Shown here: positions 1,062 through 48,212 of the stretch, piece after piece | Position numbering within the stretch: the first letter of the stretch is position 1 | Layout: every line of letters starts with the position of its first letter | NCBI RefSeq assembly: GCF_057098645.1 | Contig: NZ_CM169472.1 | Length of the DNA stretch: 64,000 nt | Strand: one strand, 5' to 3' | The notes under the pieces: generated by a model | What the model was told of the DNA's origin: nothing | What the model saw: only the letters and a program-made list of their open reading frames with translations | Database searches by the model: none | Translations under genes and position numbers: made by a program

Positions 1062-1073
1062 CACGCTACCGCC
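1062..1073 (-). promoter_or_regulatory. ops element (GGCGGTAGCGTG) in the wza leader, RfaH recruitment site within a JUMPstart region
   Basis: Minus-strand sequence reads GGCGGTAGCGTG about 180 nt upstream of the wza start; matches the ops consensus GGCGGTAGnnTG. Confidence 0.6.
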
Positions 1074-1541
1074 CCTGGCTTTTTAGCTACCAATACACTG
1101 ATTTAGCTTAATTTTTCAAACCCTCTCTGCATACAATCGTTGATGAGAAAGGGTTATTGCGGAAATTAACTTCCGAATATAAGGTGACATTATGGTAATT
1201 GAATATTGGCTCTCCAATAATGCAGGAGGAAGTGTTACAGCTAACGGAATAGCAGGCAAGGTAACAATTCGGCAATTGGCTATTTTTAAGAATTATATTA
1301 AGTGTCATTCAATATGGTTTTTAGGAGTTTCTTTAGGTTGACAATATTTAATATTGCGTCTCCACATGCGATATTTCTTAAATAATGTTTTATTATTACC
1401 ACTTTTAATTCAGGGATAATGTGAGGTTATTACCCTCAAATAATATGAGATAAATAGTGCTGCAACATTGCATTTTTGCCCCGATTTATCCATGATCGAA
1501 TTGTGACATTTGTCATACAACGAATAGGTTTTGTACTTACT

Positions 1542-5965: not shown

Positions 5966-6607
5966 TTATTCAAAGAACTGACTTATTTTCGCTTTCAATA
6001 TATCGATCGCGATGCGGTTTTTCCCGCCGCGCGGCACGATAATGTCCGCATATTGTTTAGAAGGCTCAATGAATTGCAGGAACATCGGGCGCACGGTTTT
6101 TTGATATTGCGCCATCACTGAATCCATTGAACGCCCACGCTCGTTAACGTCACGCTTGATGCGGCGCATCAGGCAGATATCCAGCGGGGTATCAACGAAA
6201 ATGGAGAAGTTAAGTTCGTCACGCAAACGCGCATCCGTCAGCAACAAAATGCCTTCGAGAATGATGACCTTCTTCGGCTCAACCGTCACCGTTTCTTTCA
6301 TACGCGTATGTTCAACATAGCTGTAAACCGGCAGGTCAATTGCCGAGCCGCGTTTCAACGCTTGTAAATGCTCAAGCAGCAGACTGTGATCCATCGCGCT
6401 GGGATGGTCGTAGTTGGTCTTAACGCGTTCTTCCATCGACAGATGGCTTTGATCTTTGTAATAGCAGTCTTCGGGAATTACGCCGATGTGTTCATCACCG
6501 ACTTGCTCACGCAATTCACGATAAAGGGTACTGGCAATAAGACTCTTGCCGGAAGCCGATGCGCCAGCGATACCGATAATGACGCACTGATGAGACTGAT
6601 CAGTCAT
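5966..6607 (-). CDS. udk: Uridine/cytidine kinase
   Basis: ORF 5966..6670; probable start at MTDQSHQC (6607) giving 213 aa; P-loop [11 protein letters not shown]. Confidence 0.9.
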
Positions 6608-6924
6608 ATATTTAGCGACCTGATTAACCTGGATGTTAGGAAGGGGGCGACGAAGCGCCAAACGCGGCAATTATAGGGATTTCATCCGTCTGATACCAGT
6701 CGAATAGCGTTGCCGCGCGCTCAGAGTTAATTGTTGACAAAGAATTCCCGGGGGCAAATTACGTTGATCAGTTTTATGTAAGGTAAAAAATGTTATACGC
6801 AGTTGCGCAAATTATCCGCCTTTACGTCACTTTATGAGCAATTCGCATATAAAATGTAAAACTTTTGTACTAGCATAAACACAGAAACGAATACTGGCGA
6901 CCAGGTCTTGCGGATAAAGCGGTA

Positions 6925-9900
6925 ATGAGCAAACAATCACAGCATGTATTAATTGCCCTGCCCCACCCGCTGCTTCACCTGGTCAGTTTAGGTTTAGTCT
7001 CGTTTATCTTTACCCTTTTCTCGCTTGAGCTTTCGCAGTTTGGCACCCAACTCGCCCCACTGTGGTTCCCGACGTCCATCATGATGGTGGCGTTTTATCG
7101 CCATGCCGGGCGCATGTGGCCGGGAATTGCGCTGAGCTGTTCGCTGGGAAATATCGCCGCATCCATCCTGCTTTTTTCCACCAGCTCGCTGAACATGACC
7201 TGGACGACCATCAATATTGTTGAAGCCGTGGTCGGGGCAGTGCTGCTACGTAAATTGCTGCCGTGGTATAACCCCTTGCAAAATCTGGCTGACTGGCTGC
7301 GTCTGGCACTCGGCAGCGCCATTGTTCCGCCTCTGTTGGGGGGTGTTCTGGTTGTCCTGCTGACGCCCGGAGACGATCCTCTCAGGGCATTTTTGATATG
7401 GGTACTGTCAGAATCCATCGGCGCTCTGGCACTGGTGCCGCTGGGATTGTTATTTAAACCACACTATCTGCTGCGCCATCGCAACCCACGGTTGCTTTTT
7501 GAGTCGCTGCTCACGTTAGCCATCACACTGACGTTAAGCTGGCTTTCGATGCTGTATCTGCCGTGGCCTTTTACTTTCATTATTGTGCTGTTGATGTGGA
7601 GCGCCGTGCGTCTGCCACGAATGGAAGCCTTTTTGATCTTCCTTACCACGGTGATGATGGTGTCGCTGATGATGGCCGCGGATCCCTCCCTGCTTGCTAC
7701 GCCGCGTACGTACCTGATGAGCCATATGCCGTGGCTACCGTTTTTGCTGATCCTGCTGCCCGCCAACATCATGACCATGGTGATGTATGCCTTTCGTGCG
7801 GAACGCAAACACATTTCCGAAAGCGAAACCCACTTTCGGAACGCGATGGAATATTCCGCTATCGGTATGGCGTTAGTGGGCACCGAGGGACAATGGCTGC
7901 AAACCAACAAAGCGCTCTGCCAGTTTCTCGGGTACAGTCAGGAAGAGCTGCGCGGACTCACCTTTCAGCAACTGACCTGGCCGGAGGATCTCAATAAAGA
8001 TCTCCAACAGGTTGAAAAGCTGATAAGCGGTGAAATAAACACCTATTCAATGGAAAAACGCTACTACAACCGCAATGGCGATGTTGTCTGGGCGTTGCTT
8101 GCCGTCTCACTGGTGCGCCACACGGATGGCACGCCGCTCTATTTTATCGCTCAGATTGAAGACATTAACGAGCTAAAACGCACCGAACAGGTCAATCAGC
8201 AACTGATGGAGCGCATCACGCTGGCTAACGAAGCGGGCGGGATTGGCATCTGGGAGTGGGAGTTGAAGCCGAATATTTTTAGCTGGGATAAGCGGATGTT
8301 CGAGCTGTATGAAATTCCTCCGCATATCAAACCGAACTGGCAGGTGTGGTACGAGTGTGTATTGCCGGAAGATCGCCAACACGCCGAAAAAGTGATTCGT
8401 GATTCGTTGCAATCACGCTCGCCCTTTAAGCTGGAATTTCGCATTGCCGTGAAAGATGGCATCCGCCATATCCGCGCCCTCGCCAACCGGGTACTGAATA
8501 AAGAAGGCGAAGTCGAACGCCTGCTCGGCATTAATATGGATATGACTGAGGTTAAACAGCTTAACGAGGCATTGTTTCAGGAAAAAGAGCGCCTGCACAT
8601 TACGCTTGATTCCATCGGTGAAGCCGTGGTCTGTATTGATATGGCGATGAAAATTACCTTTATGAATCCAGTGGCGGAGAAGATGAGCGGCTGGACGCAG
8701 GAAGAAGCGTTAGGTGTTCCGCTCCTGACGGTGTTGCATATTACTTTTGGCGACAACGGACCATTAATGGAGAACATTTACAGTGCCGACACCTCACGTT
8801 CCGCGATCGAGCAAGATGTGGTGTTGCACTGTCGGAGCGGCGGCAGTTACGACGTGCATTACTGTATTACGCCGTTAAGTACTCTGGACGGCAGCAATAT
8901 TGGTTCGGTTCTGGTGATTCAGGACGTTACCGAATCACGCAAAATGCTGCGCCAGCTGAGCTACAGCGCCTCCCATGATGCACTGACGCATCTCGCCAAC
9001 CGCGCCAGTTTTGAGAAACAACTGCGTATCCTGCTGCAAACGGTAAACAGTACACATCAGCGACATGCCCTGGTGTTTATCGATCTTGATCGCTTTAAAG
9101 CGGTGAATGACAGCGCCGGGCATGCGGCGGGTGACGCTTTGCTGCGCGAACTGGCGTCGTTAATGCTGAGTATGCTGCGTTCCAGCGACGTGCTGGCGCG
9201 ACTCGGTGGGGATGAATTTGGTCTGCTGCTACCAGACTGTAATGTTGAAAGCGCGCGTTTTATCGCTACACGCATTATCAGTGCCGTGAATGACTATCAC
9301 TTTATATGGGAAGGCCGTGTGCATCGGGTAGGTGCCAGTGCCGGGATTACCTTGATTGATGACAACAATCATCAGGCGGCAGAAGTGATGTCGCAGGCTG
9401 ATATCGCCTGTTATGCCTCCAAAAATGGTGGCCGGGGCCGGGTGACGGTTTACGAACCGCAGCAAGCTGCCGCACATAGCGAACGGGCGGCGATGTCGCT
9501 TGATGAACAGTGGCGGATGATTAAAGAGAATCAGTTGATGATGCTCGCCCACGGTGTCGCTTCGCCACGGATCCCGGAAGCGCGTAATTTGTGGCTGATT
9601 TCACTTAAGCTCTGGAGTTGCGAAGGCGAGATTATTGATGAACAAACATTTCGTCGTAGCTTCAGCGATCCGGCGCTTAGCCATGCTCTTGACCGCCGGG
9701 TATTCCACGAATTTTTCCAGCAGGCCGCAAAAGCGGTTGCCAGTAAAGGCATAAGCATCTCCCTCCCCCTTTCCGTTGCCGGTTTGAGTAGCGCCACGCT
9801 GGTGAATGATCTGCTTGAGCAGCTGGAAAATAGCCCTCTACCACCACGGTTATTACATCTGATTATTCCGGCTGAAGCGATTTTAGATCACGCAGAAAGC

Positions 9901-10242
9901 GTGCAAAAACTGCGGCTGGCGGGATGTCGGATAGTGCTCAGCCAGGTGGGCCGCGATCTGCAAATCTTCAACTCGCTGAAAGCGAATATGGCAGATTACC
10001 TGCTACTTGATGGTGAGTTATGCGCCAACGTGCAGGGTAATTTGATGGATGAGATGCTGATTACGATTATTCAGGGGCACGCTCAGCGACTCGGGATGAA
10101 AACCATCGCCGGGCCAGTCGTTTTACCCTTAGTGATGGATACGCTTTCTGGCATCGGCGTCGATCTGATTTATGGTGAGGTGATTGCCGATGCCCAACCG
10201 CTGGATTTGCTGGTGAATAGCAGTTATTTCGCGATTAACTGA
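6925..10242 (+). CDS. dgcE: Diguanylate cyclase DgcE: MASE1 membrane domain, PAS domains, GGDEF domain, C-terminal degenerate EAL-like region
   Basis: 1105-aa ORF; N-terminal multi-TM region; GGDEF motif present (RLGGDEFGLLL); long C-terminal extension. Confidence 0.9.
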   Translation: MSKQSQHVLIALPHPLLHLVSLGLVSFIFTLFSLELSQFGTQLAPLWFPTSIMMVAFYRHAGRMWPGIALSCSLGNIAASILLFSTSSLNMTWTTINIVEAVVGAVLLRKLLPWYNPLQNLADWLRLALGSAIVPPLLGGVLVVLLTPGDDPLRAFLIWVLSESIGALALVPLGLLFKPHYLLRHRNPRLLFESLLTLAITLTLSWLSMLYLPWPFTFIIVLLMWSAVRLPRMEAFLIFLTTVMMVSLMMAADPSLLATPRTYLMSHMPWLPFLLILLPANIMTMVMYAFRAERKHISESETHFRNAMEYSAIGMALVGTEGQWLQTNKALCQFLGYSQEELRGLTFQQLTWPEDLNKDLQQVEKLISGEINTYSMEKRYYNRNGDVVWALLAVSLVRHTDGTPLYFIAQIEDINELKRTEQVNQQLMERITLANEAGGIGIWEWELKPNIFSWDKRMFELYEIPPHIKPNWQVWYECVLPEDRQHAEKVIRDSLQSRSPFKLEFRIAVKDGIRHIRALANRVLNKEGEVERLLGINMDMTEVKQLNEALFQEKERLHITLDSIGEAVVCIDMAMKITFMNPVAEKMSGWTQEEALGVPLLTVLHITFGDNGPLMENIYSADTSRSAIEQDVVLHCRSGGSYDVHYCITPLSTLDGSNIGSVLVIQDVTESRKMLRQLSYSASHDALTHLANRASFEKQLRILLQTVNSTHQRHALVFIDLDRFKAVNDSAGHAAGDALLRELASLMLSMLRSSDVLARLGGDEFGLLLPDCNVESARFIATRIISAVNDYHFIWEGRVHRVGASAGITLIDDNNHQAAEVMSQADIACYASKNGGRGRVTVYEPQQAAAHSERAAMSLDEQWRMIKENQLMMLAHGVASPRIPEARNLWLISLKLWSCEGEIIDEQTFRRSFSDPALSHALDRRVFHEFFQQAAKAVASKGISISLPLSVAGLSSATLVNDLLEQLENSPLPPRLLHLIIPAEAILDHAESVQKLRLAGCRIVLSQVGRDLQIFNSLKANMADYLLLDGELCANVQGNLMDEMLITIIQGHAQRLGMKTIAGPVVLPLVMDTLSGIGVDLIYGEVIADAQPLDLLVNSSYFAIN

Positions 10243-10259
10243 GGGAGCGTTTGCCCATT

Positions 10260-10300
10260 GCCTGATGCGACGCTAACGCGTCTTATCAGGCCTACAAATC
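10260..10300. repeat. REP element
   Basis: cctgatgcgacgctaacgcgtcttatcaggcctac between dgcE and alkA. Confidence 0.6.
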
Positions 10301-12689: not shown

Positions 12690-14639
12690 TCAGCAGCGGC
12701 TTAAATCTGCCTGCGCCTGAGCCAGTTTTTCTGCTGCCTGACGTAACGGTTCCATCAACGGCATGGTCCGTGCTGGAGCATGAAGGCGGAATCGCTGCAA
12801 CTCTGTCGCGCCGACTGTCAACGCCGATTCCAGCCGATGTCGTTTGGCGGTCATTTTCGCCATTACCGCTTGTCTGTCTGCTGGCGTTATCGCTTCATTC
12901 GGCCTGAACACAAAACGGCGTTCACAGCTCGCTTTCCAGTCGATAACCGCCTGGGTCAGATGGTCGCCAAACCCTTTCACTTGCTTAACGCCACGACGGG
13001 TAACATCTGCGGCTGTTTCAATACCAAAAGACCGTAACGCCGCTTTACGCGCAGGGCCAACGCCGGGAATAGAGGCAACATCAATAAAAAATCCCTCCAG
13101 AAACTTCTGCTTCTGCCGTTCCCTTGCAGTGTCATGAAGTGCTGCCAGAGCGCGTTTCTCTTCTTCCGGTAACCCGAGAATTTCGTCCTTCATTTTTTCG
13201 AGCATCGTCCGTTTGGCGATAAAACCTTCCAGGCCGCCTACCTGCTGGATCTGGCGGACTAAATGGTCATAGTCCATTTTCGCACGATTAAATGCCTCAC
13301 GGCGTTGCTGAACTTCTGCTTTGTACGCTTTGCTTGTCAGACTGCCAATAATCCAGATAGCCGCCAGCACAGGAACCAAAATAATATAACGCGGTTCTGC
13401 CTGAAGGCCGCAAAGCAGCAGCGATAATGCTGACAGTGCGATCTCAAGCAGAATGATGTATTCGCGCCGTAACAGGCCTAAAGGAAGCGGCCTGCCAGTC
13501 GGTTGGAAATGATCGGGTAATGGCAGTTGCAATGCTGGCGGTGCTACTGACGCCATCACCATCGCCCAGACTTTCGCCAGCACAAAATTCCCGCCGGTGG
13601 TAATGACCTCTTCGCCGAGATCAATAAAATAGATAACGCCTTGATTATCCAGCGTACACCACGGGCAGTCGGTCAAATGAGCGGGATAAACATGCATTGC
13701 CGAAACGGTACATTTCTTTAACTGTTGGCGTAGAGAATCCAGTGCTGCTACCCACGCTTTAGCCGTCGGACGCCCGGTTGCTACACCACTTTCCGTAAAC
13801 GCCTGCTGAAACATGGCTTCAACATCGCCCGGTAACATCGACAGCGGAATCGATCGTGGCGGCGGTTTTAAACCACGTCGCTGATTATCTGACGCGTAGG
13901 CATAACGGAAATGGGCAATATCCGTCTCCAGCGCATTACCCGCATCAGAGATAAGCGGCACACCAGAATAAGGATGCCGCCCACCAAACAAGACGTGAAA
14001 AATAAGCAACGCAAGGCCAAAATTATCGTGATTCGCGGTACGTTCAAAACCGACAAATGATGGCAAGGTTTGTAGCTCTGGCGGCGTAAAATGCGACACG
14101 CCGACTTCGCATAAATGCAGTGTGCCATTGGCGTTAATCTGAAAGGAGTCACTATCGATCAACACCACTTTGCTGTCGCGACCTACCATAAAGCTGTTCT
14201 GGTTTACGTCCCCCACGACGTGCCCGTGCTCGTGAACCGTAGCAAAAGATGAAGCAATATTGCGCGCAACATAGAGTAGAAAATCCCACGCACAATGAGG
14301 GTAACTCTGGCGACGATGTGCCGGGCTATAGATCATATGAATCGGTTCTTTACCAGAAACTTTTGGCATCATAAAACCGATAACTTTTCCGCCTCGCCCA
14401 CCGTGAAGCGTTGCCTGCGGCCAGGCGACATAATTCAACAACTGCGCGTCAGCTGTCGCAGCCATAAAGGCAAGTTTGTCCTGTTTTAAGGCGGGTGGCG
14501 GCGTGTGATAAATCTTGGCGACGCTATCGGCAAACTCCTCGATATCATAAACCGCACCTTCACCGCCTTTGCCCAGTTCACGGCCTGGCGTAACGCACTC
14601 ACCAGTAGCAGTATATAAAGTGGGTTTCATGGTAACCAC
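12690..14639 (-). CDS. yegI: Atypical membrane Ser/Thr protein kinase-like protein (N-terminal kinase-like domain, central TM segments, C-terminal helix-hairpin-helix-like region)
   Basis: 649-aa ORF; glycine-rich loop GKGGEGAVYD, lysine in VAKIY, catalytic-loop-like HVVGDVNQN, DFG-like IDSDSF, hydrophobic TM stretch (YIILLEIALSALSLLLCGL...VPVLAAIWIIGSL). Confidence 0.8.
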   Translation of the reverse strand: MVTMKPTLYTATGECVTPGRELGKGGEGAVYDIEEFADSVAKIYHTPPPALKQDKLAFMAATADAQLLNYVAWPQATLHGGRGGKVIGFMMPKVSGKEPIHMIYSPAHRRQSYPHCAWDFLLYVARNIASSFATVHEHGHVVGDVNQNSFMVGRDSKVVLIDSDSFQINANGTLHLCEVGVSHFTPPELQTLPSFVGFERTANHDNFGLALLIFHVLFGGRHPYSGVPLISDAGNALETDIAHFRYAYASDNQRRGLKPPPRSIPLSMLPGDVEAMFQQAFTESGVATGRPTAKAWVAALDSLRQQLKKCTVSAMHVYPAHLTDCPWCTLDNQGVIYFIDLGEEVITTGGNFVLAKVWAMVMASVAPPALQLPLPDHFQPTGRPLPLGLLRREYIILLEIALSALSLLLCGLQAEPRYIILVPVLAAIWIIGSLTSKAYKAEVQQRREAFNRAKMDYDHLVRQIQQVGGLEGFIAKRTMLEKMKDEILGLPEEEKRALAALHDTARERQKQKFLEGFFIDVASIPGVGPARKAALRSFGIETAADVTRRGVKQVKGFGDHLTQAVIDWKASCERRFVFRPNEAITPADRQAVMAKMTAKRHRLESALTVGATELQRFRLHAPARTMPLMEPLRQAAEKLAQAQADLSRC

Positions 14640-15388
14640 AGCGCCAGTGCCAACGTTTTATCATCATCGGTACGCTCGTTTACCGCCGGGCTCGACAAAA
14701 ACTGCTTTAACAATTCAGGTAATAAATCGAGTTGTTCCTGCGTTGCTGCCGCCAGTCCATTGAAAAACGGGGTAAAGAAAGGCACATGCGGAGAATTATC
14801 CAGCATATTTAACGCCAGTCGCTGAATACCATCCGTAAATGCTGCAACTTTATGCGCACGCTCAGTGCTGGTGAAAGTTTCCAGTCTGGAAACAGCATCT
14901 TCATCGCTAATGAAATGCGTCATATTGGCATATTCACCCACCATCGGCGTGAGCAGCAGTTCCAGACCACGACCAAAATCCACCACTACACCGCCGTCGC
15001 CAATTTGCATAATCAATGTGCCGTTAGCCGATGAAATCAATCCCAGAAACGTGCAGGCAAAATCGCGAACTGCTAATGCTTTGGCTTCTGCCTCGGCAAA
15101 AAGTCGTTGACGAATGGTCAGTACCATATTTGTGGCGAGGACATCATTAAGCCCCAATTCACCGTCCTGTACTTTTTGCACCATAAACGCCATCGCTTCA
15201 TTGACGGCGAGCTTCGCGCCTTCTCCTCCCTGCGAAACGCTACCTGCGCCATCAGCAAGGAACATCACCAGTAATGGCTGCTGGTCATTTAGCCAGGCAA
15301 CCTGCATCTGGCAGGCATCCTGACAAGGTAAATCAGCGCTAATGTGCGACGTTCCAACAGCGGATGCATAAACCAGACGCCAGCTCAC
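14627..15388 (-). CDS. pphC: PP2C-family Ser/Thr protein phosphatase
   Basis: 253-aa ORF with PP2C-type acidic metal-binding motifs ([12 protein letters not shown]); start overlaps yegL stop (ATGA) and its 3' end overlaps the yegI start by 13 nt. Confidence 0.8.
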
Positions 15389-16044: not shown

Positions 16045-16227
16045 AAGAAATCCTTTCTTAGAGAATTATTGAGGTCCGGTATCATACCGATTGCAATAAT
16101 GAAATAAGAGCAAACGAAGAAACTTTCAGAATTAGGCCCGGCGGCGCAGAAAATTTTGCTATTCGCCTCGCAAGAACGGAGAGCCGTCGATTGACACTAA
16201 GGGCGGAGTGACATAATTACAGGAGTG

Positions 16228-16375
16228 AGGGTTAGGGAGAAGTTTCCCCCTCCCCCTGGTGTTCTTAGTAAGCCTGGAAGCTAATCACTAAGAGTATCAC
16301 CAGTATGATGACGTGCTTCATCATAACCCTTTCCTTATTTAAAAGCCCTCTTCTCCGGGAGAGGGTTCCCCGTTT
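16228..16375 (+). ncRNA. sibA: Sib antitoxin sRNA, copy 1 (boundaries approximate)
   Basis: Starts just downstream of TTGACA...TAATTA; fully antisense to ibs ORF 1; ends at hairpin ccctcttctccgggagaggg plus T-run. Confidence 0.55.
16265..16324 (-). CDS. ibsA: Ibs-type hydrophobic toxin peptide, copy 1 (MMKHVIILVILLVISFQAY)
   Basis: 19-codon ORF with tandem ATG start and strongly hydrophobic sequence typical of Ibs toxins. Confidence 0.6.
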   Translation of the reverse strand: MMKHVIILVILLVISFQAY

Positions 16376-16556
16376 TAGCGTCCCGCTGAAATCGTCGGCT
16401 TACCTCCTTTCGCCCTGAATGCAGTCTATCGCTGACTTGCGGATAAAATAGTTTCAAGTGTGATTATTGCGTAACGACTCGCAAAGAATATTTGCTGGCA
16501 GGATCGCAGACTGCAAAGCCTGCAGATTGACAATCTTATCGTGAAGGCATACTTTC

Positions 16557-16703
16557 AGGAGTGAGGGTAGAGCGGGGTTTCCCCCGCCCTGGTAGTCTTA
16601 GTAAGCGGGGAAGCTTATGACTAAGAGCACCACGATGATGAGTAGCTTCATCATGACCCTTTCCTTATTTAAGGCCCCTTCCTCGGGAGGGGCTTTCCCG
16701 TTT
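16557..16703 (+). ncRNA. sibB: Sib antitoxin sRNA, copy 2 (boundaries approximate)
   Basis: Promoter TTGACA-N17-TACTTT; antisense to ibs ORF 2; terminator hairpin plus T-run. Confidence 0.55.
16598..16654 (-). CDS. ibsB: Ibs-type toxin peptide, copy 2 (MMKLLIIVVLLVISFPAY)
   Basis: 18-codon hydrophobic ORF antisense to Sib copy 2. Confidence 0.6.
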   Translation of the reverse strand: MMKLLIIVVLLVISFPAY

Positions 16704-16884
16704 CAGCGTCCCGCTGAAATCTTCGGCTTACCTCCTTTCGCCCTGTATGCAGTCTATCGCTGACTTGCGGATAAAATAGTTTCAAGTGTGATTATTGCGT
16801 AACGACTCGCAAAGAATATTTGCTGGCAGGATCGCAGACTGCAAAGCCTGCAGATTGACAATCTTATCGTGAAGGCATACTTTC

Positions 16885-17031
16885 AGGAGTGAGGGTAGAG
16901 CGGGGTTTCCCCCGCCCTGGTAGTCTTAGTATGCTGGGTAGCTAATCACTAAGAGCACCACGATGATGAGTATCTTCATCATGACCCTTTCCTTATTTAT
17001 GGCCCCTTCCTCGGGAGGGGCTTTCCCGTTT
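16885..17031 (+). ncRNA. Sib antitoxin sRNA, copy 3 (boundaries approximate)
   Basis: Third repeat of the promoter/sRNA/terminator block. Confidence 0.5.
16926..16982 (-). CDS. Ibs-type toxin peptide, copy 3 (MMKILIIVVLLVISYPAY)
   Basis: 18-codon hydrophobic ORF in the third repeat; two residue differences from copy 2. Confidence 0.55.
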   Translation of the reverse strand: MMKILIIVVLLVISYPAY

Positions 17032-30274: not shown

Positions 30275-30358
30275 TTAATTTCGATTATTTTTCCCGGATG
30301 GAAAATTCTTAGAAACCGATCACATACAGCTGCATTTATTAAGGTTATCATCCGTTTC

Positions 30359-30445
30359 GCTGAAAAACATAACCCATAAAATGCTAGCTGTACCAGGAAC
30401 CACCTCCTTAGCCTGTGTAATCTCCCTTACACGGGCTTATTTTTT
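30359..30445 (+). ncRNA. cyaR: CyaR (RyeE) Hfq-dependent sRNA
   Basis: gctgaaaaacataacccataaaatgctagctgtaccaggaaccacctccttagcctgtgtaatctcccttacacgggcttattttttt: CCUCCU anti-SD seed, then terminator hairpin gcctgtgtaa/ttacacgggc plus U-tract; CRP half-site-like TCACA upstream. Confidence 0.75.
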
Positions 30446-47994: not shown

Positions 47995-48118
47995 TGCTCC
48001 TGCCATAACGTGAAGAAGCAATGACCTGGTGGTCCGTGACTTCCCTACGCTGGCATTATCCAGATCAGGTGATACGGGTATTTCTCAGCCTTCACGCAGA
48101 AGGGCACCCCGAGTCGTT
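47995..48118 (-). promoter_or_regulatory. TPP (THI-box) riboswitch in the thiM 5' leader
   Basis: Minus-strand leader reads ...ggggtgcccttctgcgtgaaggctgagaaatacccgtatcacctgatctggataatgccagcgtagggaa..., the conserved THI-element core (CUGAGA, ACCUGAUCUGGAUAAUGCCAGCG). Confidence 0.8.
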
Positions 48119-48212
48119 TGGTTGCGATGATAAATCGCAGAGGAGGATGGTAATGTCCAGCGCACGCGTTGTAAACGAGGAAAAACGGCAGTTTTACAAT
48201 CGCGTTAATAAA

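What the first reader, a model, noticed from the sequence alone, without database searches (positions are those of the whole stretch)
6925..10242. DgcE: 1105-aa multi-sensor diguanylate cyclase with a long C-terminal extension beyond the GGDEF domain
A MASE1 membrane domain, a multi-PAS region and an intact GGDEF motif are followed by about 300 further residues that look like a degenerate EAL domain. The protein is a top-level c-di-GMP input, and the role of its C-terminal region is not obvious from sequence.
Basis: partly seen in the sequence, partly recalled or inferred. Interest (0 to 1): 0.2.

Follow-up and report, generated by a model that had tools for sequence, protein, structure and literature searches.

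The report
E. coli DgcE, dead EAL domain
This is the well-studied E. coli master diguanylate cyclase DgcE (YegE); its C-terminal extension is a folded but catalytically dead EAL domain, already shown experimentally to inhibit the enzyme, so the finding is correct but ordinary.

Summary
The ORF at 6925..10242 (+) is real, 1105 aa, and is dgcE. It is 100% identical in DNA to E. coli O145:H28 genomes and differs from K-12 DgcE at two residues (T508A, S647C). It scores 2069 bits on the DgcE equivalog model and lies in the K-12 udk–dgcE–alkA context. Domains are MASE1, three PAS, a GGDEF domain with intact GGDEF motif and RxxD I-site, then 263 (not ~300) further residues. Those residues are a genuine EAL fold (Pfam 76 bits; AlphaFold pLDDT 92; only EAL domains as top PDB matches). 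The degenerate state is shared by nine full-length representatives from other Enterobacterales genera. The role of this domain is published: Pfiffer et al. 2019 showed that deleting it raises DgcE output and that it dimerises and counteracts DgcE oligomers. New here, from only seven alleles: constraint within the domain is uneven. Residues 843–1017 are relaxed (dN/dS 0.28), while 1018–1105, including the canonical EAL dimerisation helix, are as constrained as the rest of the protein (0.035). Verdict: already known, low interest.

The parts
6608..6924 (.). udk-dgcE divergent intergenic region (dgcE promoter and 5'UTR lie here)
   Evidence: K-12 annotation transferred with an offset of 1342 nt. 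A simple sigma-70 consensus scan finds no promoter here, which fits the RpoS dependence and stationary-phase induction reported for dgcE (PMC5635695).
6925..10242 (+). dgcE (yegE) coding sequence, 1105 aa plus stop
   Evidence: ORF. NF007298 equivalog scores 2069 bits against a cut-off of 1135. 100% nt identity to O145:H28 genomes annotated dgcE. 1103/1105 aa identical to K-12 DgcE.
6979..7806 (+). MASE1 membrane domain (aa 19-294)
   Evidence: Pfam PF05231, E 8.6e-36. Hydrophobic peaks run from aa ~8 to ~289.
7831..8166 (+). PAS1 (aa 303-414)
   Evidence: Pfam PAS, PAS_3 and PAS_9.
8278..8535 (+). PAS2 (aa 452-537); carries T508A relative to K-12
   Evidence: Pfam PAS_3, 44 bits, on the isolated segment; substitution.
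8587..8940 (+). PAS3 (aa 555-672); carries S647C relative to K-12
   Evidence: Pfam PAS_4 at 561-672 and PAS_8 at 555-605; substitution.
8968..9438 (+). GGDEF domain (aa 682-838)
   Evidence: Pfam PF00990, 155.7 bits. 150 bits to the RbdA/PA0861 GGDEF domain, with DxLT, DLDxFKxxND, GHxxGD and GGDEF aligned.
9178..9189 (+). I-site RxxD (RSSD, aa 752-755), five residues upstream of GGDEF
   Evidence: Motif positions.
9205..9219 (+). GGDEF active-site motif (aa 761-765)
   Evidence: D763A/E764A abolishes function in the identical K-12 domain (PMC6510439).
9514..10218 (+). Degenerate EAL domain (EALdeg, aa ~864-1098)
   Evidence: Pfam EAL, 76 bits, partial. AlphaFold model pLDDT 91.9. Foldseek top hits are all EAL domains, TM about 0.7-0.8. 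0/12 catalytic or binding positions conserved.
10039..10089 (+). Helix aa 1039-1055 (NLMDEMLITIIQGHAQR), positional equivalent of the canonical EAL dimerisation helix; conserved across the DgcE clade
   Evidence: Model helix 198-213. Clade conservation. In Bd1971 the long dimerisation helix lies ~34 aa after the Asp pair (PMC6717892). dN/dS 0.035 for aa 1018-1105.
10258..10300 (.). Palindromic REP-like sequence in the convergent dgcE-alkA spacer
   Evidence: Sequence read (GCCTGATGCGACGC...GCGTCTTATCAGGC). Calling it a REP element rests on my own knowledge and was not tested. No intrinsic-terminator-like site was found here.

Best explanation
The ORF is dgcE (yegE), the major diguanylate cyclase of E. 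coli, here as the intact allele found in O145:H28 genomes. Shown here: an N-terminal MASE1 membrane domain and three PAS domains precede a GGDEF domain with an intact active-site motif and I-site. The last ~240 residues keep the EAL barrel fold but have lost every catalytic and c-di-GMP-contacting residue scored, so they should neither hydrolyse nor, in the canonical way, bind c-di-GMP. Taken from published K-12 experiments on an identical C-terminal domain: the EALdeg domain is auto-inhibitory. Deleting it raises CsgD and matrix output, raises DgcE protein level and lets higher-order DgcE oligomers form, and the isolated domain dimerises. Inferred here: inhibition probably works through self-association of the EALdeg domains via the retained canonical EAL dimerisation helix (aa ~1040-1055). 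That would hold the adjacent GGDEF domains in an arrangement that disfavours the productive GGDEF pairing promoted by PAS3 dimerisation and by RdcA/RdcB acting on MASE1. Confidence is about 0.99 for identity and degeneracy and about 0.55 for this inhibitory mechanism.
For: Identity: NF007298 equivalog 2069 bits; 100% nt identity to dgcE of O145:H28 genomes; 2 aa differences from K-12 DgcE, both in PAS domains; udk-dgcE-alkA-yegD synteny. Cyclase competence: GGDEF at 761-765, RSSD I-site, and an end-to-end match to solved GGDEF domains; the GGAAF mutant is null in K-12. EAL fold retained. EAL chemistry lost: DgcE reads L891 S893 K895 P948 I980 A983 S1006 Q1007 L1027 G1063 V1066 Y1083 where PdeL, PdeK and most of the more distant EAL domains in the set read E L R N E E D D K E E Q. 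H876/G877 replace the QP motif, S914 replaces the AE glutamate, and loop 6 is SQVGRDLQIF instead of DDFGTGYSS. Functional retention: the same degenerate state is seen in nine full-length MASE1-PAS-GGDEF-EAL representatives from Erwinia, Mixta, Duffyella, Hafnia, Ewingella, Shimwellia, Yersinia, Sodalis and Edwardsiella. dN/dS for the domain is 0.18, well below 1. Inhibitory role and dimerisation: PMC6510439. Interface inference: the strongest clade-specific conservation and strongest constraint (dN/dS 0.035) fall in aa 1018-1105, which contains the positional equivalent of the canonical EAL dimerisation helix.
Against: No experiment on this allele exists. The mechanistic step (dimerisation through helix 1040-1055 sterically blocking GGDEF pairing) is inference; Pfiffer et al. 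themselves call it a hypothesis. The helix equivalence rests on sequence position and a monomer model, not on a dimer structure. The short compound helix, the other half of the canonical interface, is degenerate in DgcE (GRDLQIF), so the dimer geometry may differ from that of active EALs. The dN/dS values come from only 7 alleles, pairwise comparisons are not independent, and recombination was ignored.
Confidence: 0.85

Rival explanations
1. The EALdeg domain is a c-di-GMP receptor of the FimX or LapD type that gives DgcE product feedback.
For: By sequence and by fold, the closest solved structures include the degenerate receptor EAL domains of FimX and LapD.
Against: In the alignment FimX keeps FQPV and EVLLR where DgcE has AHGV and LISLK. 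Every c-di-GMP-contacting position scored is replaced. Pfiffer et al. state that the domain is degenerate at binding as well as catalytic positions. Product feedback is already provided by the intact RxxD I-site.
Confidence: 0.04
2. The C-terminal domain is a decaying, functionless remnant of a once bifunctional GGDEF-EAL protein.
For: It is the fastest-evolving part of DgcE. 25 of the 38 amino-acid-variable positions among 7 alleles lie in the last 263 residues, and dN/dS is 0.18 against 0.02-0.045 elsewhere (Fisher p about 1e-6). Relatives with the same architecture and an intact EAL exist (P0035 from Microbulbifer, P0040, P0049).
Against: dN/dS is still far below 1. A confidently predicted fold is retained. 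The domain is kept full-length in all nine representatives from other Enterobacterales genera, with clade-specific conserved motifs such as invariant G1063-P1064, NLMDEM...HAQR and a SYFAIN/K tail. Its deletion has a clear gain-of-function phenotype.
Confidence: 0.04
3. The EALdeg domain is mainly a docking surface for other proteins of the local c-di-GMP module (PdeR, DgcM or other PDEs), and inhibition reflects partner binding rather than self-association. This is not exclusive of the best explanation.
For: DgcE is an interaction hub that contacts PdeR and several PDEs in two-hybrid screens (PMC5635695). Other fully degenerate E. coli EAL proteins are discussed in the same paper as non-enzymatic components (RflP, BluF, CsrD). 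The constrained C-terminal third could equally be a heterologous interface.
Against: The text read here did not map those interactions to the EALdeg domain. The isolated domain does self-interact. dgcE mutations have no phenotypic effect in a pdeR mutant, which places DgcE upstream of PdeR but does not show where on DgcE the contact lies.
Confidence: 0.15
4. The EAL domain retains weak phosphodiesterase activity, making DgcE bifunctional.
For: The overall EAL fold is preserved.
Against: Every metal-binding and catalytic position scored is replaced: E141, N200, E232, D262, D263, K283 and E319 in PdeL numbering read L, P, I, S, Q, L and G in DgcE.
Confidence: 0.01

Closest known systems
E. coli K-12 DgcE (YegE, b2067)
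   Same: Same gene. 1103/1105 residues are identical, the GGDEF and EALdeg domains are identical, and the flanking genes (udk, alkA, yegD) are the same.
   Different: T508A (PAS2) and S647C (PAS3). The nucleotide sequence is about 99.4% identical to a K-12-derived laboratory strain (NEB10-beta).
Catalytically active EAL phosphodiesterases (E. coli PdeL/YahA, PdeH, PdeK; P. aeruginosa RbdA/PA0861, RocR; T. denitrificans TBD1265)
   Same: Same barrel fold (TM about 0.7-0.8), same strand and helix order, and conserved structural glycines and hydrophobic core.
   Different: All 12 catalytic or substrate-binding positions scored, and loop 6, are substituted in DgcE. The Pfam EAL score is 76 bits against 190-219 bits for canonical relatives.
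Degenerate c-di-GMP-receptor EAL domains (FimX, LapD)
   Same: Among the closest solved structures by sequence and by fold. These are also non-catalytic EAL domains that follow a GGDEF domain.
   Different: In the alignment FimX keeps the QP and EVLxR motifs, which DgcE has lost. DgcE keeps an active GGDEF domain. That FimX and LapD have degenerate GGDEF domains rests on my own knowledge.
Fully degenerate, non-binding EAL proteins of E. coli (RflP/YdiV, BluF/YcgF, CsrD)
   Same: An EAL fold re-used for protein-protein regulation rather than c-di-GMP chemistry. The classification of these proteins as degenerate comes from PMC5635695.
   Different: Those proteins act on separate targets; that these are FlhDC, BluR and RNase E rests on my own knowledge. 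DgcE's EALdeg acts in cis on its own cyclase. No direct comparison was run here.
MASE1-PAS-GGDEF-EAL proteins with an intact EAL (P0035 from Microbulbifer aggregans; also P0040 and P0049, whose source organisms were not looked up)
   Same: Same domain order, and 29%, 29% and 27% identity in the EAL region.
   Different: Catalytic positions are essentially canonical (ELRNEEDDKE-x-Q, with only the E322-equivalent varying in P0049), and the Pfam EAL score is 214-219 bits.

Membership tests
DgcE (NCBIfam NF007298 equivalog) | Full-length HMM score above the curated cut-off (1135 bits) | tested here: met
   2069.4 bits, profile positions 1-1111 matched by residues 1-1105.
DgcE (NCBIfam NF007298 equivalog) | Orthologous position and near-identity to the characterised K-12 protein | tested here: met
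   1103/1105 aa identical. udk-dgcE-alkA-yegD context is collinear with K-12 at 98.7% nt identity.
Active GGDEF diguanylate cyclase | Intact GG(D/E)EF motif and nucleotide/Mg2+-binding residues | tested here: met
   GGDEF at 761-765. DLDRFKAVND and GHAAGD align with solved GGDEF domains.
Active GGDEF diguanylate cyclase | RxxD inhibitory site five residues upstream of GGDEF | tested here: met
   RSSD at 752-755.
Active GGDEF diguanylate cyclase | c-di-GMP synthesis | not testable with these tools
   Published for K-12, whose GGDEF domain is identical: the GGAAF mutant is null, and deleting dgcE in a pdeH background lowers c-di-GMP by about 75%.
EAL domain (Pfam PF00563), fold membership | HMM score above the gathering threshold and an EAL barrel fold | tested here: met
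   76.2 bits against 31.3, profile positions 39-234. Model pLDDT 91.9. All top PDB matches are EAL domains.
Catalytically active EAL phosphodiesterase | Glu of the EAL/EVL motif (PdeL E141) and the following Arg (R145) | tested here: not met
   L891 and K895; the motif reads LISLK.
Catalytically active EAL phosphodiesterase | Metal-binding Asn (N200), ExxE (E232, E235) and Asp pair (D262, D263) | tested here: not met
   P948; I980 and A983; S1006 and Q1007.
Catalytically active EAL phosphodiesterase | Catalytic Lys (K283), Glu of EGVE (E319) and Gln (Q339) | tested here: not met
   L1027, G1063 and Y1083. G1063-P1064 is invariant in all 12 DgcE-clade sequences.
Catalytically active EAL phosphodiesterase | Loop 6 / compound-helix motif DFG(T/A)GYSS | tested here: not met
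   The aligned stretch, starting at the Asp pair, is SQVGRDLQIF.
c-di-GMP-binding degenerate EAL receptor (FimX/LapD type) | Retention of substrate-contacting residues (QP motif, E and R of ExLxR, AE glutamate) | tested here: not met
   H876/G877, L891/K895 and S914. In the same alignment FimX keeps FQPV and EVLLR. Actual binding was not testable.
MASE1 membrane sensor domain | PF05231 match above threshold, with multiple hydrophobic segments | tested here: met
   124 bits against 29.8, aa 19-294. Hydropathy peaks span aa ~8 to ~289.

The most novel reading that the evidence does not exclude
Within a domain usually described simply as degenerate, selection is sharply split. The former active-site two-thirds (aa 843-1017) drift quickly, while the last ~90 residues (K-strand, dimerisation helix, invariant Gly-Pro strand, SYFAIN/K tail) are conserved across the Enterobacterales representatives examined and are as constrained as the catalytic GGDEF domain. 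The most novel reading not excluded is that this C-terminal third is a dedicated regulatory interface, and that its partner, whether itself, the GGDEF domain, or another protein such as PdeR, sets DgcE output.
Probability: 0.3. Interest if true: 0.3.

Novelty: already known. Interest (0 to 1): 0.08.

Why it matters
It matters little beyond correct annotation. DgcE is the top-level c-di-GMP input for curli and cellulose matrix production in E. coli. Its architecture, its dead EAL domain and the inhibitory role of that domain are all published. The window shows that this O145:H28-type genome carries an intact allele, whereas an O157:H7 genome and others carry frameshifted or truncated copies. 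That could bear on biofilm capacity in these pathogens. The uneven constraint inside the EALdeg domain gives a modest, testable pointer to which residues to mutate to dissect auto-inhibition.

Tried and rejected
1. A first MAFFT alignment of DgcE 843-1105 with only PdeH, PdeL and PdeK misplaced the N-terminal EAL-motif region by opening a large gap. I replaced it with a 104-sequence alignment and a curated 26-sequence alignment, cross-checked against the phmmer FimX alignment.

2. In the 104-sequence alignment the first three PdeH columns are misaligned (LAE where the ELL motif is expected). I ignored PdeH for those columns.

3. I first recalled the helix after the K-strand as the 'compound helix'. 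Reading PMC3989770 and PMC6717892 showed that the compound helix is the short one directly after the Asp pair, and that the long helix about 34 aa downstream is the dimerisation helix. The inference was corrected accordingly.

4. Consensus promoter and terminator scans found no sigma-70 promoter upstream of dgcE and no terminator after it. This is uninformative for an RpoS-dependent gene.

5. An Rfam gathering-threshold scan found nothing within or next to dgcE.

6. Antisense ORFs inside dgcE (up to 148 aa) were treated as mechanical, because nothing supports them.

7. I did not scan genome contigs or metagenome contigs. Protein-level relatives and E. coli alleles were enough, and the cost was not justified for a known gene.
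Full report
**Observation**

The window contains an ATG-to-stop ORF of 1105 codons at exactly 6925..10242 on the + strand. It sits between a divergently transcribed udk and a convergent alkA, followed by yegD and yegI. This is the K-12 gene order, and the region is collinear with K-12 at 98.7% nucleotide identity.

The 3.7-kb stretch is 100% identical to dgcE of E. coli O145:H28 genomes. The gene is found at >=80% coverage in 5400 of 5426 complete E. coli genomes, where it is annotated dgcE. The protein differs from K-12 MG1655 DgcE at only two residues, T508A and S647C, both in PAS domains. The GGDEF and C-terminal domains are identical to K-12. It scores 2069 bits on the NCBIfam DgcE equivalog NF007298, whose cut-off is 1135.

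**Anatomy**

- Pfam gives MASE1 at 19-294, PAS folds at 303-414, 452-537 and 555-672, GGDEF at 682-838 (156 bits), and a partial EAL match at 898-1088 covering profile positions 39-234 of 236 (76 bits against a gathering score of 31.3).
- GGDEF is at 761-765, and an RxxD I-site (RSSD) lies five residues upstream at 752-755.
- The GGDEF domain aligns end-to-end with solved GGDEF domains, best with that of RbdA/PA0861 (150 bits), and the DLDxFKxxND, GHxxGD and GGDEF motifs are conserved.
- 263 residues follow the GGDEF domain, not about 300.

**Is the C-terminus a degenerate EAL?**

Three independent lines agree that it is.

Fold. An AlphaFold2 model of residues 843-1105, built on a 26-sequence alignment, is confident (mean pLDDT 91.9, pTM 0.88) and shows the alternating strand and helix pattern. 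All 50 listed Foldseek matches in the PDB are EAL domains (FimX, RbdA, LapD, RocR, TBD1265, MorA, PA3825, Bd1971), with query-normalised TM-scores of 0.69-0.82. The whole extension from about residue 864 to 1098 is therefore one EAL domain, including the first ~35 residues that the Pfam profile did not align.

Chemistry. I aligned the domain with E. coli K-12's own EAL enzymes PdeL, PdeH and PdeK and with 100 relatives from a 1.84-billion-protein search. The 12 catalytic or substrate-contacting positions, in PdeL numbering, are E141, L143, R145, N200, E232, E235, D262, D263, K283, E319, E322 and Q339. The assignment of these positions as catalytic rests on my own knowledge of the RocR, TBD1265 and YahA literature. 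Asp302/303 and Lys323 of BlrP1, and Asp306/307 of Bd1971, are confirmed.

- At these positions DgcE reads L891, S893, K895, P948, I980, A983, S1006, Q1007, L1027, G1063, V1066 and Y1083, which is 0 of 12.
- PdeL, PdeK and most of the more distant EAL domains in the set read ELRNEEDDKEEQ or differ only at the E322 position.
- The QP motif is H876-G877, the AE glutamate is S914, and the stretch aligned to the DDFGTGYSS motif is SQVGRDLQIF.
- The independent phmmer alignment to FimX places DgcE LISLK under EVLLR and AHGV under FQPV.

Canonical c-di-GMP binding is also not expected.

Evolution. The degenerate state is not a recent accident.

- All nine closest full-length representatives (24-43% identical in this domain) have the same MASE1-PAS-GGDEF-EAL architecture and are degenerate at most or all of these positions.
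- They come from Erwinia, Mixta, Duffyella, Hafnia/Obesumbacterium, Ewingella, Shimwellia, Yersinia, Sodalis and Edwardsiella, which represent several families of Enterobacterales.
- The next-most-similar proteins with the same architecture include one from Microbulbifer (P0035). They have a canonical EAL and Pfam EAL scores of 214-219 bits.
- The DgcE clade has its own conserved features: an invariant Gly-Pro replacing the catalytic Glu and its neighbour (G1063-P1064, 12/12), a conserved helix NLMDEMxV(S/T)IIHGxAQR (1039-1055), and a C-terminal SYFAIN/K tail.

**Selective constraint**

Seven intact E. coli alleles were compared: the window, K-12 and five others 96.4-98.6% identical to the window.

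| Region | dN/dS | Polymorphic codons that change the amino acid |
|---|---|---|
| MASE1 (1-298) | 0.045 | 4 of 27 |
| PAS (299-675) | 0.019 | 4 of 69 |
| GGDEF (676-842) | 0.033 | 5 of 35 |
| 843-1105 (whole extension) | 0.178 | 25 of 60 |
| 843-1017 | 0.28 | 23 of 45 |
| 1018-1105 | 0.035 | 2 of 15 |
| 1-842 | 0.028 | 13 of 131 |

- 25 of the 38 amino-acid-variable positions lie in the last 263 residues.
- Comparing amino-acid-changing with silent polymorphic codons, 843-1105 against 1-842 gives Fisher p about 1e-6.
- The sample is small, the pairs are not independent, and recombination was ignored, so this is indicative only.

**What is known**

Pfiffer et al. 2019 (PMC6510439) dissected K-12 DgcE genetically.

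- GGDEF to GGAAF is null. Deleting MASE1 or the PAS region is null.
- Deleting the EALdeg domain increases matrix, CsgD and csgB::lacZ expression, raises DgcE protein level, and lets complexes larger than dimers appear.
- The isolated EALdeg domain self-interacts in a two-hybrid assay.
- The authors propose that EALdeg dimerisation sterically interferes with productive oligomerisation. That oligomerisation is promoted by PAS3 dimerisation and by the GTPase system RdcA/RdcB acting on MASE1.

Sarenko et al. 2017 (PMC5635695) place DgcE as an interaction hub acting upstream of PdeR-DgcM-MlrA. A 2026 study (PMC13031359) adds an inverse dependence of DgcE activity on membrane potential.

**Mechanistic inference added here**

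In canonical EAL dimers the interface consists of two elements: a short compound helix directly after the Asp pair, and a long dimerisation helix about 34 residues downstream (Bd1971 residues 315-321 and 340-357 relative to D306/D307; PMC6717892; also PMC3989770). In DgcE the Asp pair corresponds to S1006/Q1007. The long helix therefore corresponds to about 1040-1055, which is the model helix 198-213. This is also the clade-conserved, strongly constrained NLMDEM...HAQR helix.

This fits the published self-interaction of EALdeg. It suggests that the retained function of the domain resides in this interface, while the former active-site half mainly serves as scaffold. This step is inference and has not been shown.

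**Rivals**

- A FimX/LapD-like c-di-GMP receptor role is unlikely, because the binding residues are gone.
- A functionless remnant is contradicted by retention across the Enterobacterales representatives, by dN/dS below 1, and by the deletion phenotype.
- Residual phosphodiesterase activity is excluded on sequence grounds as far as sequence can exclude it.
- A heterologous docking role (PdeR or others) remains possible and is not exclusive of the best explanation.

**Verdict**

The object is already known and its C-terminal domain has a published role. Interest is low. The only modest additions are the spread of the degenerate state across Enterobacterales genera and the uneven constraint inside the domain.

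Noticed in passing
window 14585-14636 (between the ORFs at 12690-14639 and 14627-15388, both -): About 785 bp of K-12 sequence containing yegJ, which lies between yegI and pphC, has no counterpart in the window. Here the yegI-like and pphC-like ORFs overlap directly, forming a tight yegI-pphC-yegL (kinase, phosphatase, vWA) operon.
   Followed up: partly
window 16191-16339, 16527-16669, 16855-16997 (+): There are three tandem SIB RNA copies (141-145 bits each) where K-12 MG1655 has two (sibA, sibB, with the ibsA and ibsB toxin genes antisense). This points to an extra Sib/Ibs type I toxin-antitoxin copy in this strain.
   Followed up: partly
L008 (E. coli O157:H7 Z1830 dgcE) and L007 (strain H2 dgcE): dgcE is annotated as a pseudogene in the O157:H7 Z1830 genome (a 1-nt insertion at alignment column 458, first stop at codon 178) and in strain H2 (stop at codon 124). 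A published 1456delC frameshift abolishes curli in soil isolates (PMC6029578). The window's allele is intact. An O157 'dgcE_2' pangenome marker of 2808 nt (PMC12472240) may be the ORF downstream of this frameshift.
   Followed up: partly
window 10258-10300: A palindromic sequence (GCCTGATGCGACGC...GCGTCTTATCAGGC) lies in the 100-nt convergent spacer between dgcE and alkA. It looks like a REP element on the basis of my own knowledge. No intrinsic-terminator-like site is found there.
   Followed up: no
window 10225-10239 (DgcE aa 1101-1105) and relatives P0006-P0020: The extreme C-terminus (S/G)YFAI(N/K) is conserved in 10 of 12 DgcE-clade sequences and is absent from canonical EAL proteins. It is low-confidence in the model. 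A C-terminal Flag tag did not alter K-12 phenotypes.
   Followed up: no
window 30357-30442 (+), 48025-48121 (-), 40100-40170 (-), 1062-1100 (-): Other Rfam matches at gathering score are the CyaR sRNA, a TPP riboswitch, naRNA4, and a JUMPstart element. The JUMPstart element lies at about the position of the wza upstream region in K-12.
   Followed up: no
window 5966-6670 (-): The mechanical ORF for udk starts at a TTG at 6670 (234 aa). The K-12 annotation maps the udk start to window 6607 (213 aa). The real dgcE-udk intergenic region is therefore 6608-6924, not 6671-6924.
   Followed up: yes
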